A DNA stretch of 64,000 bases from assembly GCA_038087875.1 (NCBI GenBank), contig CM075991.1, forward strand, positions 6,014,001-6,078,000. Direction: 5' to 3'. The DNA comes from Malacoraja senta. Its lineage: Eukaryota. A program made the position numbers and the translations under genes. The notes under the pieces are model-generated. The model was not told where the DNA came from, did not search any database, and saw only the letters and a list, made by a program, of their open reading frames with translations. Positions 1,949 through 13,405 of this stretch are shown one piece after another. Every line of letters starts with the position of its first letter. Position 1 is the stretch's first letter.

Positions 1949-2934
1949 TGGTGTTCACCGCGCTACCTCAGACCATGCATTATTCCTGCATCATTCTACC
2001 CGCATTGTCGTTGGACTTAGATATTATTCTCCACGGCTCGAGTTAAGTAAAAGTTCCTCCCGATCCGCAACTCTCTGGGATGTGGGAGGAAAGTTCAGCA
2101 TCCACGAAAATAACCCATGCAGTCACAGGGAGAACGTACAAACTCAACACACACAGAAGCCGAGGTCAGGGTCGAACCCACGTCTCTGGGGCTGAGACAT
2201 ATGTTCTGAATTGTTCATCATTGCTTCCATGATTTATTCCCCATGTATTTTATGCCACTTGGTGTCCCGGAAGATTGTGTGATAACTTTCGATATTCATA
2301 CTTGTTCGTTTCAAGTCAGTTTGAATAATGACCGGTCATTTCGAATGTGCAATAGATGGAGCTATTGGGAAATGAGCTGGAATAAACAGGCAGCTCCCTT
2401 TCAACGTGGAGGGATTCATCAATGGGATACAGGAGCCTTGACTCTTGAATATAATGTAACGACTCTTGCATCACAAATAAACATATACGAAACCTATTCT
2501 GCCGTCATCTTCTACTGGACATCGCTCGACTGCCTCTCGCTGCTCACCTGTCAGAGTTCTGTAGGCTGACCAACGTGCCCCATCAACGCTAGTCCCATCT
2601 GCCTGTAATAGCCCATATCCCGCTAAATCTTTAGAAACCATGGGCACGTCCAAATGTCATGTTATACCAGTTACTGATTGCCTGTACAGGGTTTTCAGAA
2701 ATGCACTGTCGTGGATTAAATATTTGTATCACATTGTCGTGGATTAAATATTTGTATCACATTAACAATGGAGATATTTTCCAGGCTGTAATGGTGTGAG
2801 GTAGTGAGTGCATTGTCCCAAGTTATACGTAAAAGCTCCAGTAACTCAATGGGACAGACAGCATCTCTGGAGAGAAGGAATGCGTGACGTTTCGGCTCGA
2901 GACCCTTCTTCAGACCCAAAACGTCACCCATTGT

Positions 2935-3530
2935 GCAAAGGGATCTGGGGTCCTTGTTCATCAGTCTATGAAAGTAAGCATACAGGTACAGCAGGCAGTG
3001 AAGAAAGCGAATGCCATGTTGGCGTTCATAACAAGAGGAGTCGAATATAGGAGCAAAGAGGTCCTTCTGCAGTTGTACAGGGCCCTAGTGAGACCACACC
3101 TGGAGTATTGTGTGCAGTTTTGGTCCCCTATTTTGAGGTAGGACATTCTTGCTATTGAGGGAGTGCAGCGTAGGTTTACAAAGTTAATTCCCGGGATGGC
3201 GGGACTGTCATATGCTGAGAGAATGGAGCGGCTGAGCTTGTACACTCTTGCGTTTAGAAGGATGAGAGGGGACCTTATTGAAACATATAAGATTGTTAAG
3301 GGTTTGGACACGCTAGAGGCAGGAATTCAGAGGGCGGTGGAGGCCGGTTCTCTGGATACTTTCAAGAGAGAGCTATATAGGGCTCTTAAGGATAGCGGAG
3401 TCAGTGGATATGGGGAGAGGGCAGGAACTGGGTCCTGATTGGGGATGATCAGCCATGATCACATTGAATGGCGGTGCTGGCTCCAAGGGCCGAATGGCCT
3501 ACTCCTGCACCTATTGTCTATTGTCTATTG
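2935..3530 (+). mobile_element. CR1 3' fragment; duplicated copy at 7762-8150
   Basis: ALVRPHLEYCVQFWSP and QRRFTKLIPGMAGLSYAERMERL motifs; same 3' UTR and tail as other CR1 copies. Confidence 0.85.
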
Positions 3531-10109: not shown

Positions 10110-13100
10110 ATGGTACGTACGGATCAGCTTTGTGCACCTGACTGTTTCTTGGTTTTCAACAAACAACGCAACGCGGCTTTGAGTCGCTGCACAGCCGCTT
10201 TCCGAGGTGACAGTGACAGAGATATGTTGCAGTGTTAGTTACTTGAACACGTCGCCTGTCAAGGTCTCTCTCTTTCCCTTTCTCTCCGCATAAACATCTA
10301 CTGTGCATCGCTCTGCTGCTTCTCGGGGCTCAGCTGTCGGAATCCGCCTGCTTCTTTCAGACACAGCACACAGACGGTAATCTATCGATGTGAATCCCTC
10401 TCTCGACTCCAACAGTGAGACTCGGCCGCCAGCAGACATTGAGCAGGGACATTATATCCATTGTGCTACGCGAAAGCTGGTCACCCTTGCCTCCCCGACT
10501 GCTCGTCGGTCGGGCAGGATACTGAGGGCAGTGCAGGTTGATGCCCCGACCAATCCCCAGCTTAAGGGGTACTCCTCTGCCGCACTTCAGCTGAAGCACC
10601 ATACCTACTCCACGGATGGAGTGAAGGATCTCCTCAGAATTATGTGAAGCTGCCCCCCTAAACACTGGCCAATATTTGACCCTCAACTGCTGTTGATAGA
10701 ACTGGTAATCGCAGGCTAATCACTGGGCTGTGTGGGGTATATTCGAGATCCCAGTGGGTCAGAGTTCACACTGTAACCAGGGGCAAAGTCGAATCCTTCG
10801 TGATAGACACAAAATCCTGGTTTAACTCAGCGGTTCAGGCAGCATCTCTGCAGAAAAGGAATAGATGACGGTTCGGGTCAAGACCCTTCTTCAGACCTGA
10901 TCCGCTGACTCGCAGAGTCAGTCCACCATTTTGTGTCAATCTTCAGTGTAAACCGGAATCTGCAGTTTCTTCCGACACAATTATGGAGCGAGCTGCTTGA
11001 ATGAGCTGTCCCTTGATTTATGGCTCTGCTCCAGTCCCACCATGCTAATCTTTGTGCACCCAGTGCGGAGGGAGTGGGTAGATCAGCGGAGGATCTGGAT
11101 GGTTTGTTACTAGGCCTGGCCACGGCTCACGGCGCCAGGCAGACGAGGACTCGACCAGAGCCGACTGACTGCACCTTTGGCGAGCTTAGGTCCGCGACTA
11201 GATGTCCCTTGGAAAAGATAAAAAACAATGTCCACTAGCACCAGGGAGACGTTCCAGAAATGATGGGCGCCTCGAGGGACTGACTGTCTCCTGGTTCAGG
11301 ATTGCAACATAGTAATTTAATAGTAGGTTGTGATCTTTTGACAGTGATGTTATGGCGGTGGGTGCTTTGGTATAATTCCATGCATAAATACTTCTGTAAA
11401 TAGCTGAATACGTTTCTTTTAATTTAAATATATATGGAGTGAGCGCTGGGTGTTGGGTCTGGCGCTGTTGTCGGAACCTGGGTGAAACGGGACCGTGCAG
11501 CCAAGTGCCAGCTCCGGGTCAGTACACGCGGGGACAGACGCTGGCTCTTCCCAATGGTCAGAATGGCTCATTTCCAGGGTGCGTTTGTACTGAGTCAACA
11601 CCAGTGCCCCGCCACCCGGTCGGGTCACTCCACTACCTGACGGGATAATGCCCACCCGGTGTCTTTGTCACCAACAGACAGGGGCACATGCTTTGACCTA
11701 AACGACGGAACGTATCATCAATTCGGAGAAGATTGGCTGAGCTCCAACTGCTGGTTTTGCGTGTGTGCGCGCGAAGGCTATAAATGCTGCGAACGGTAAG
11801 TAATCATCCGCCGTTTAGCTCACAGGATCTGACCCCGACTGCTGAACTGGCGTCGCAGGCTCAAGGGGTATAGCCGATGCCGTGGTGTAAGCCGTATGAC
11901 TGGCGATGGGTTGGGAATTGACGGCAACGGTAGACGGAACGGCCCGGCCATCGGCTTTCTCCATCCCTGTACCAAACCCGATTCACGGGGAAGCTACGCC
12001 CGGGATTGTCATGTACATCAATGATCTGGATGATGGTGTGGAAAATTGGATTAGTAAGTATGCAGATGATACTAAGATAGGTGGTGTTGTGGATTATGAA
12101 GTAGATTTTCAAAGTCTACAGAGAGATTTAGGCCATTTGGAAGAGTGGGCTGAAAGATGGCGGATGGAGTTTAATTCTAACAAATGTGAGGTGCTACATC
12201 TCGGCAGGACAAACCAAAATAGGACGTACACGGTAAATGGTAGCGAATTGAGGAATGCAGTTGAACAGAGGGATCTAGGAATAACTGTGCATAGTTCCCT
12301 GAAGGTGGAATCTCATGTAGATAGGGTGGTAAAGAAAGCTTTTGGTGTGCTGGCCTTTATAAATCAGAGCATTGAATATAGAAGTTGGGATGTAATGTTA
12401 AAATTGTACAAGGCATTGGTGAGGCCAATTCTGGAGTATGGAGTACAATTTTGGTCGCCTAATTATAGGAAGGATGTCAACAAAATAGAGAGAGTACAGA
12501 GGAGATTTATTAGAATGTTGCCTGGATTTCAGCAACTAAGTTACAGAGAAAGGTTGAACAAGTTAGGTCTTTATTCTTTGGAGCGCAGAAGGTTAAGAGG
12601 GGACTTGATAGAGGTCTTTAAAATTATGAGCGGGTTAGACAGAGTGGACGTGGATAAGCTTTTCCCATTGAGAGTAGGGAAGATTCAAACAAGGGGACAT
12701 GACTTGAGAATTAAGGGACAGAAGTTTAGGGGGAACATTAGGGGGAACTTCTTTACTCAGAGAGTGGTAGCTGTGTGGAATGAGCTTCCAGTGGAAGTGG
12801 TGGAGGCAGGTTCGATGTTATCCTTTAAAACTAGATTGGATGGGTATATGGACGGAAAAGGAATGGAGGGTTATGGTCTGAGTGCAGGTAGATGGGACTA
12901 GGGGGAAGTATTTATTTTTAATTTAAAAAAAAGATTTAAATGTTCTGCACGGACTTGAACGGCCGAGATGGCCTGTTTCCGTGCTGTTATGGTTATATGG
13001 TTATATGGTTATATGGGATCTGCTTTTGTGGGGATCAGTAGGGAAGGCTTGGCGGAGGGAGGGAATAAGGGAGTGAGGGAGTGAGGGAGGGAGGGGGAGA

Positions 13101-13405
13101 AGGAGGGAAGGGGTTGCACGAAGGACTTCAATTTGCAGTCGAAGCAAACCTGTGAGTCACACAGCACGGGCACAGGGACTTCATTGCACTGGGCCAGGCC
13201 GCATCTCTGGAGAACATCGACTTCTCAGGTTGGGTTTTTAATTATACATCATTGCTTCCCTGATCTGTTCCCCAGGTATTTCATGCCAGCTGGTTTCTCG
13301 AAAGATTGTGTGATAACCTTCGATTTTCATAGTTGTTCGTTTCGAGTCCATTTGAAGAAGGACCGCAAAGTCGAATGTGAAATAACGTCAGTTGTTGGGA
13401 AATGA
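10110..13405 (+). pseudogene. MSMB-like: MSMB-like copy C: exons 10110-10112, 10292-10376, 11678-11795, 13276-13405; ORF intact (111 aa) but exon-2 acceptor mutated
   Basis: [111 protein letters not shown], 10 mature Cys. The acceptor reads ccgcAT (10290-10291) versus ccgcAG in copy B. AATAAA at 13411 and 13502. Confidence 0.75.
12007..13014 (+). mobile_element. Young 5'-truncated CR1 LINE in intron 3 of copy C
   Basis: Uninterrupted RT C-terminus (YINDLDD..SKYADDTK..VRPILEYGVQFWSP), (GGTTATAT)n tail, GGGAT duplicated at 12002-12006 and 13015-13019. Empty site cccGGGATctgg is present in copy A. Confidence 0.95.

What the first reader, a model, noticed from the sequence alone, without database searches (positions are those of the whole stretch)
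2245..13405. Mature-protein exons look more diverged than flanking non-coding DNA (accelerated evolution)
Hand count for exon 4, A vs C: about 26 substitutions in 130 nt, 17 of 42 residues changed and only about 3 purely synonymous codon changes. The following 3' flank looks about 90% identical. In exon 3 the C-W-x-C codon is GAG/CTG/TTT (E/L/F) in A/B/C. E and F share an almost identical signal peptide but diverge right after the first Cys (IRLEPNTN vs FFQLQSTS). Cys positions are invariant. Inference: diversifying selection, as reported for snake SSPs. Relaxed constraint on pseudogenised A could contribute.
Basis: partly seen in the sequence, partly recalled or inferred. Interest (0 to 1): 0.7.

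Follow-up and report, generated by a model that had tools for sequence, protein, structure and literature searches.

The report
Skate microseminoprotein family under diversifying selection
A skate-like fish carries about thirty copies and fragments of a small secreted protein gene (the beta-microseminoprotein family) whose mature part changes its amino acids faster than neutral DNA while the disulfide frame stays fixed, likely to bind changing partners; the same pattern is already known for this family in primates and snakes.

Summary
The counts are right: A vs C exon 4 differs at 26 of 130 nt, with 17 residue changes. The chosen pair is weak evidence, though. A is a pseudogene, C has a non-canonical exon-2 acceptor, and the yardstick is largely a slow 3' UTR. 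Against all alignable non-coding DNA the A/C excess has p=0.07.

The family-wide test is clear. The window ends a PSP94/MSMB family with 27 exon-3 copies on one contig; its closest relatives are skate proteins. On 11 intact paralogues (A-D excluded), mature-region omega is 1.57 and signal-peptide omega 0.64. About 55% of codons have omega near 3.1 (M7 vs M8 2dlnL 62.7; M8a vs M8 55.3). The signal survives multi-nucleotide, synonymous-rate, per-exon-tree and drop-clade checks. Intron pseudo-codon controls give 0 of 6 positives. Four-fold sites evolve at the intron rate (0.97x); codon positions 1 and 2 at 1.6x and 1.4x.

So diversifying selection is real and not caused by A's decay. It repeats a known MSMB/SSP pattern (primates: 42% of codons, omega 2.9). 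New: a large, apparently skate-wide expansion. Driver and tissue are unknown. The scan noted family members in other genomes, not this test.

The parts
82..199 (+). Gene A exon 3 (PSP94/MSMB family); exons 1-2 lie upstream of the window
   Evidence: AG/GT borders, open frame
2245..2375 (+). Gene A exon 4, broken: acceptor AT and a 1-nt insertion (pseudogene)
   Evidence: a contig of run X1 covers 2155-2384 with 0 differences and 0 gaps
2376..2675 (+).
   Evidence: 35/296 differences to C; the UTR class evolves at 0.60x introns
5478..5480 (+). Gene B start codon at the end of exon 1
   Evidence: ATG|GT
5660..5744 (+). Gene B exon 2 (signal peptide, first Cys)
6684..6801 (+). Gene B exon 3; its exon 4 was not found, and an N gap lies at 7562-7761
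10110..10112 (+). Gene C start codon at the end of exon 1
10292..10376 (+). Gene C exon 2; acceptor reads AT, so C may be non-functional
   Evidence: not settled by X1 contigs
11678..11795 (+). Gene C exon 3
   Evidence: PF05825 E=0.0011
13276..13405 (+). Gene C exon 4
19426..28486 (+). D: 9-kb tandem copy of 10396-19430 (98.6%), holding exon 3 (20708-20825) and exon 4 (22307-22436) identical to C but no exon 1-2
29266..37726 (-). Gene E, intact: ATG 37724-37726, exon 2 36564-36648, exon 3 30708-30843, exon 4 29266-29395
39821..43609 (+). Gene F, intact: ATG 39821-39823, exon 2 40016-40100, exon 3 41108-41243, exon 4 from 43483 with a stop just after the last Cys-Ser, as in its skate orthologues
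   Evidence: PF05825 E=0.00023
62004..62106 (+). Exon 3 of a seventh, divergent family member (G); its probable exon 4 lies just past the window (G000:C15:6078238-6078369)

Best explanation
These genes are members of a large tandem family of small secreted beta-microseminoprotein (PSP94)-type proteins whose mature residues change faster than neutral DNA, by positive diversifying selection on a fixed ten-cysteine frame, likely to bind different or changing extracellular partners. Shown: four-exon genes; 27 exon-3 copies, of which 11 belong to complete intact genes and many others to broken or partial copies (birth-and-death turnover); omega about 3 at about 55% of mature codons; a constrained signal peptide; synonymous sites at the intron rate. 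Inferred: duplication by unequal crossover and segmental copying; selected residues mostly on the exposed side of the beta-sheets, because they alternate with fixed Cys/Trp/His positions. Driver, not tested: host defence, by binding secreted proteins of parasites or microbes such as CAP/CRISP-type effectors in mucus, serum or egg fluids (about 45%); sperm or egg-case biology (about 30%); other endogenous partners (about 25%). A plain cationic membrane-killing role is unlikely for most copies, as 8 of 12 have a computed pI under 5.
For: Family: PF05825; the profile hits human, porcine and chicken MSMB and SSP-2 in PDB at E 8e-13 to 7e-10; a model of a Leucoraja orthologue has MSMB structures as all 4 Foldseek hits at E<=0.001, with low TM scores of 0.29-0.38. 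Selection, own MG94 code on 11 intact genes and 95 codon columns: M0 omega 1.57 mature vs 0.64 signal; 2dlnL M1a/M2a 55.6, M7/M8 62.7, M8a/M8 55.3; with double-nucleotide changes 38.2, 44.2, 38.0. M1a/M2a with synonymous-rate variation 42.9, with both corrections 33.4, GY model 54.4, exon 2/3/4 on their own trees 7.1/20.5/25.3, signal peptide 0. Omega=1 is rejected even under one ratio (p=0.0009). All 6 drop-clade sets are significant (LRT 20-48). Controls: intron pseudo-codons 0 of 6 frames significant; null simulations 0 of 11 (one tree) and 1 of 11 (exon-specific trees; maximum 6.5) above 5.99. Rates relative to introns: position 1 1.59 (1.28-1.87), position 2 1.43 (1.15-1.77), position 3 1.15 (0.92-1.43), four-fold 0.97 (0.56-1.43), signal positions 1+2 0.41; tree dS 1.28-1.38 vs intron tree 1.42, tree dN 2.2-2.6. 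dN exceeds intron distance in 63 of 66 pairs and dS in 56 of 66 (pairs are not independent).
Against: The youngest pairs show no excess: A-g02, A-B, B-C, and g05-g21 has dN/dS 0.94, so selection need not be acting now on every copy. Pairwise synonymous distance was above intron distance in 53 of 66 pairs (median ratio 1.36), unlike the tree-based estimates; the pairwise intron filter biases that distance down. The four-fold class has only 26 sites. Wrong-frame readings of exons 3+4 were not all null: frame -1, which shares the wobble position, gave LRT 34, and frames -0 and +2 gave 9.7 and 6.9. The code is home-made, not codeml, and site posteriors are NEB rather than BEB. No expression or binding data exist for any copy, so 'intact' means open frame and usable splice sites only; one of the 11 has a GC donor and one has 9 Cys.
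Confidence: 0.88

Rival explanations
1. Relaxed constraint: the copies are redundant or dying, so the exons drift at the neutral rate and only look fast.
For: Many copies are broken (A, g09, g11, g14, g17, g23) and C has an AT acceptor; the closest pairs show exon distance about equal to non-coding distance.
Against: Drift gives omega at most 1. The mean is 1.57 (p=0.0009 vs 1) and M8 beats M8a by 55 with A-D excluded. A's residues are shared with intact g02. Cys, Trp, His and Asp columns are fixed.
Confidence: 0.04
2. The non-coding yardstick is unusually slow (conserved UTR, or introns homogenised by gene conversion), so the exons only appear accelerated.
Against: dN/dS does not use non-coding DNA; four-fold sites run at 0.97x introns and tree dS matches the intron tree length.
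Confidence: 0.04
3. Model artefact: multi-nucleotide mutations, site-to-site mutation-rate variation, recombination among paralogues or misalignment create a false omega>1 class.
For: Double-nucleotide changes improve the null fit by about 10 lnL and cut the LRT from 55.6 to 38.2; two wrong frames gave p=0.008 and p=0.03.
Against: Still p=5.5e-8 with both corrections; each exon is significant on its own tree; removing the indel block leaves LRT 46.8; introns give no signal; the recombination stress simulations peak at 6.5. Triple-nucleotide changes and recombination inside an exon were not modelled.
Confidence: 0.04

Closest known systems
Primate MSMB/PSP94 (Clark and Swanson 2005, PMC1201370; New World monkey paralogues as summarised in PMC3268785)
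   Same: Same family and Cys frame. Primates: 42% of codons at dN/dS 2.90, spread over the surface; here about 55% at 3.1 in both domains. Monkey paralogues were reported with intron 2 more conserved than the exons.
   Different: One to a few genes there; about thirty copies and fragments here. The skate cluster is on contig C15, while the NCOA4 and CAP-ZIP_m (FAM21/WASHC2-type) hits are on C14, so orthology to the mammalian locus is not shown.
Habu snake small serum proteins SSP-1 to -5 (PMC6609765; PDB 6imf)
   Same: Tandem array with pseudogenes and LINE insertions; accelerated evolution of the mature part; SSP-2 is the best PDB match to the exon-3 profile (E 1.8e-8).
   Different: SSPs are serum inhibitors of the snake's own venom proteins. 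No target, tissue or venom link is shown here, and the full-length profile scores human MSMB higher than SSP-2.
Opossum MSMB1-14, lizard USMH1-7, zebrafish usmh1-3, chicken MSMB1-3 (PMC3268785, PMC8167871)
   Same: Lineage-specific tandem expansions of the same four-exon gene.
   Different: Larger here (27 exon-3 copies), split over several clusters on one contig, with sub-lineages shared across three skate genomes.
Annotated Leucoraja erinacea and Rhinoraja longicauda 'beta-microseminoprotein-like' / 'small serum protein 5-like' genes
   Same: Orthologous sub-lineages, for example F vs P0005 71/79 and g08 vs P0001 73/86 identical residues in exons 3+4; 9 and 6 proteins, each set from one contig length.
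   Different: Automatic annotation only; no selection analysis was found in the searched library.

Membership tests
PSP94/MSMB family (PF05825) | Ten Cys in the mature protein, in MSMB spacing | tested here: met
   10 Cys in 11 of 12 complete reading frames, 9 in g05; the Cys align with human PSP94
PSP94/MSMB family (PF05825) | Signal peptide and a mature chain of about 90 residues | tested here: met
   Hydrophobic exon-2 leader before the first Cys; mature part 88-95 residues without junction codons; judged by eye, no signal-peptide predictor run
PSP94/MSMB family (PF05825) | Four coding exons, the first ending with the start codon | tested here: met
   ATG|GT, then 82-85, 115-136 and 130 nt exons
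PSP94/MSMB family (PF05825) | Profile and fold match | tested here: met
   Single exons give PF05825 at 19.9 and 22.1 bits (cut-off 22; exon 4 alone no hit); full-length skate relatives carry PF05825; all-beta model, pLDDT 74.5, top Foldseek hits all MSMB. The model is of a Leucoraja orthologue.
MSMB-like subfamily (tetrapod locus) | Synteny with FAM21/WASHC2, NCOA4, ANUBL1 | tested here: inconclusive
   ARA70 (NCOA4), CAP-ZIP_m and Ant_C hits lie on C14, not C15; ANUBL1 not searched; contigs may be joined or rearranged
USM/USMH/SSP subfamily | Synteny with ARID5A and KANSL3 | tested here: inconclusive
   None of 7 ARID hits is on C15 (incomplete by design); the KANSL3 search found nothing anywhere
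Snake SSP (functional class) | Serum protein that binds and inhibits venom proteins | not testable with these tools
   No RNA run listed and no binding assay
Positively selected MSMB paralogue arrays | dN/dS>1 class in the mature region, signal peptide and Cys spared, exons faster than introns | tested here: met

The most novel reading that the evidence does not exclude
Skates independently built the largest microseminoprotein repertoire among those compared here, a bank of hypervariable disulfide-locked binders that neutralise secreted CAP/CRISP-type or protease effectors of parasites and microbes: an SSP-like arms race without snake venom, possibly deployed in the egg case or skin mucus.
Probability: 0.2. 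Interest if true: 0.6.

Novelty: new member of a known kind. Interest (0 to 1): 0.3.

Why it matters
It extends a known pattern (fast, selected divergence of MSMB/SSP paralogues) to cartilaginous fishes, which otherwise have a reputation for slow protein evolution (recalled, not tested here), and documents an expansion that seems shared by skates. The function of MSMB is a long-standing open question. Eleven divergent intact paralogues with mapped variable sites are a natural panel for finding what these proteins bind, but nothing here identifies the partner. A specialist would find it expected rather than surprising.

Tried and rejected
Expression: no RNA holder listed for window 13255-13740; one run (X1, kind unknown, contigs) held it. 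This says nothing about expression.

C's AT acceptor could not be checked in X1, because the difference table was cut and no listed contig spans the site.

An apparent fast 5' region (1.59x introns) was rejected as misalignment of E, F and g18: without them it is 0.242 vs 0.236 for introns.

Branch variation in omega was not significant: terminal vs internal LRT 0.5; free-ratio p=0.32.

The two PF05825 hits on contig C2 were set aside. The stretch fetched for one of them matches only across the exon-3 Cys motif and reads like VWC modules by eye.

Synteny to MSMB or USM neighbours stayed unresolved. A Pfam scan of 148 of 848 non-repeat ORFs around the clusters found only retroelement domains, SRCR exons and two sub-threshold hits.

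No complex prediction was run, because no partner is identified.

Literature searches for a skate or shark MSMB study listed none. Searches were loose and showed only 20 of 2,134 and 15 of 23 papers, and subscription journals are not covered.
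Full report
Anatomy. The window is G000:C15:6014001-6078000. It holds six related genes or gene parts (A-F) with one layout: exon 1 ends in ATG, then come exons of 85, 118 or 136, and about 130 nt, plus exon 3 of a divergent seventh member at 62004-62106. A has an AT acceptor and a 1-nt insertion in exon 4; a contig of run X1 reads the same letters over 2155-2384 (X1 may be the source sample). B's exon 4 was not found and an N gap follows. C has an AT acceptor at exon 2. 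D is a 98.6% tandem copy of 9 kb of C lacking exons 1-2. E and F are intact.

All hold: 26 of 130 nt, 17 residues, 2 purely synonymous codons, flank 35 of 296, GAG/CTG/TTT, and E/F 5 of 57 nt in the signal part against 10 of 25 after the first Cys. The contrast has p=0.035, but the flank is mostly 3' UTR, which is slower than introns (0.60x). Against all alignable non-coding DNA, A vs C gives p=0.068; of the 6 pairs among g02, A, B and C only g02-C passes 0.05. The pair is suggestive, not proof.

The family. Genome searches showed copies on C15 near 3.76-3.81, 4.94-4.97, 5.63 and 5.97-6.08 Mb and one exon-4 copy on C1302. From the fetched stretches I counted 25 exon-3 copies and 2 divergent ones. 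Eleven genes are complete, with open frames and usable splice sites (g02, g05, g08, g12, g18, g19, g20, g21, g22, E, F; g22 has a GC donor, g05 has 9 Cys). The rest are broken, partial or cut by gaps. g02 is the intact sister of A (exon 4: 7 of 130 differences) and still differs from C at 22 of 130, so the A/C difference predates A's decay. Identity: PF05825; PDB MSMB and SSP-2; MSMB fold for a modelled Leucoraja orthologue. The nearest proteins are from the skates Leucoraja erinacea (9) and Rhinoraja longicauda (6); other rays and sharks gave one or two each among the rows seen (only 20 of 150 representatives were named). In a tree of 43 proteins the 27 skate rows form one side of a branch with weak support (73/73), and several sub-lineages are shared between genomes with strong support. 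The expansion therefore looks skate-wide, but a single origin is not shown.

Selection tests. codeml and HyPhy are absent, so I wrote an MG94/GY94 likelihood code. All main tests use the 11 intact genes and 95 mature codon columns; A, B, C, D, all partial or broken copies and the junction codons were left out. M0 omega is 1.57 for the mature part and 0.64 for the signal peptide. 2dlnL is 55.6 for M1a/M2a, 62.7 for M7/M8 and 55.3 for M8a/M8, with 54-57% of codons at omega about 3.1; allowing double-nucleotide changes gives 38.2, 44.2 and 38.0. Synonymous-rate variation gives 42.9, both corrections 33.4, GY 54.4, F1x4 51.4, exon-specific trees 54.1, single exons 7.1, 20.5 and 25.3, and the signal peptide 0. 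Six drop-clade sets give 20-48, removing the indel block 46.8, and all in-frame exon copies 60.7.

Controls. Introns read as codons: 0 of 6 frames significant. Exons 3+4: true frame 50.6; antisense frame sharing the wobble position 34.2; the others 0.5, 6.9, 9.7 and 3.0. Null simulations: 0 of 11 and 1 of 11 above the 5% cut-off. With branch lengths fixed from 455 intron sites, rates are 1.59 for position 1, 1.43 for position 2, 1.15 for position 3, 0.97 for four-fold sites (26 sites, wide interval) and 0.41 for signal positions 1+2. Tree dS is 1.28-1.38 against an intron tree of 1.42, and tree dN is 2.2-2.6. Pairwise counts agree on dN (above intron distance in 63 of 66 pairs, above dS in 56 of 66) but put dS above intron distance in 53 of 66, which I attribute to the intron filter and report as a result against. 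Omega does not differ detectably among branches.

Where the change falls. 29 of 95 columns have an M2a NEB posterior of at least 0.95. They lie in both domains and often alternate with fixed residues (x-H-x, x-W-x, x-C-x-C-x), which suggests one face of the beta-strands; this is inference, as exposure was not computed. The first and last strands form the CRISP-binding edge in PSP94 (PMC7150914, passages). Here they hold some selected sites (columns 5, 90, 91) but no clear concentration, and the last three residues are conserved.

How it most likely works. Tandem and segmental duplication keep making copies; many die (A, g09, g11, g14, g17, g23); survivors are selected to differ in surface residues while Cys, Trp, His, Asp and the signal peptide are held. 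The family's known activities are binding CAP/CRISP proteins, inhibiting venom proteins, and anti-Candida or antibacterial action in mucosal, seminal and egg fluids (PMC7150914 and PMC8167871, passages). I put host defence first (about 45%), reproduction second (about 30%) and other endogenous partners third (about 25%). These odds rest on family knowledge and on a neighbouring multi-SRCR gene, which is only a weak hint. Eight of 12 products have a computed pI under 5 and two are basic, so binding is more plausible than general cationic killing.

Comparison with print. PMC1201370 (passages): primate MSMB has 42% of codons at dN/dS 2.90, dispersed over the surface. PMC3268785 (passages and sections 6 and 8): 14 opossum, 7 lizard and 3 zebrafish paralogues; monkey paralogues with an intron more conserved than the exons, cited from Makinen 1999, which I did not read; SSPs placed with USMH genes. 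PMC6609765 (passages): habu SSP array with accelerated evolution and a pseudogene. PMC7150969 was seen as a search listing only. No supplements were opened. Five searches listed no study of this family in skates or sharks, within a library that lacks subscription journals. The subfamily (MSMB-like or USMH/SSP-like) is unresolved: NCOA4-type and FAM21-type hits are on C14, no ARID hit is on C15, and the sequence scores point both ways.

Verdict. Real, well-supported diversifying selection, shown by the family rather than by the A/C pair. It is a new member of a known kind. Interest 0.3.

Noticed in passing
window 62004-62106 and L020:238-369 (G000:C15:6078238-6078369): A seventh, divergent MSMB-like gene at the end of the cluster, with a shorter exon 3; it was the best PF05825 hit in the genome search and may be an older single-copy member. 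Exons 1-2 were not located.
   Followed up: partly
L006:9335-9415 and L006:7825-7941, minus strand (G000:C15 about 3.813-3.814 Mb): Another divergent member, exons 3 and 4, at the edge of the 3.8 Mb cluster.
   Followed up: no
L034 and L035 (G000:C15:3725001-3745000): At least five SRCR-domain exons on the + strand (a multi-SRCR gene; the DMBT1/CD163-like label is recalled) next to the 3.76 Mb cluster.
   Followed up: partly
window 10396-19430 vs 19426-28486: 9-kb tandem duplication, 98.6% identical. X1 contig depths of about 50-76 here, against 31 at A's exon 4, fit two real copies, though the tool warns that depth is not copy number.
   Followed up: partly
G000:C15:6000540-6002877 (L017): Gene g22 is followed by three further exon-4 copies, broken or from other sub-lineages.
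   Followed up: no
window 43483-43609: Gene F ends right after the last Cys-Ser, seven residues short; the same short end is in Leucoraja and Rhinoraja orthologues (P0005, P0004), so it is old. It removes the C-terminal strand that helps bind CRISPs in PSP94.
   Followed up: partly
G000:C15 clusters at 3.76-3.81, 4.94-4.97 and 5.97-6.06 Mb: The clusters share sister genes (g02/A, g04/g14/g22, g05/g21, g07/g11/g20, g08/g18); A and g02 differ by about 7% in non-coding DNA, which points to segmental duplications over megabase distances rather than alleles.
   Followed up: partly
L013 (G000:C15:5636027-5636156) and L019 (G000:C1302:5031-5160): The same stop-containing exon 4 appears on C15 and on the unplaced contig C1302, possibly a haplotype duplicate.
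   Followed up: no
L038 (G000:C15:5612001-5622000): LTR-retroelement fragments (RT, RNase H, integrase, zinc-knuckle Pfam hits) upstream of the 5.63 Mb copy; observed only.
   Followed up: no
window 2512-2555 and 13537-13590: The DNA downstream of exon 4 in A, C/D and g02 contains a short stretch about 78% like the exon-2 signal-peptide sequence, possibly a remnant of an old duplicate.
   Followed up: no
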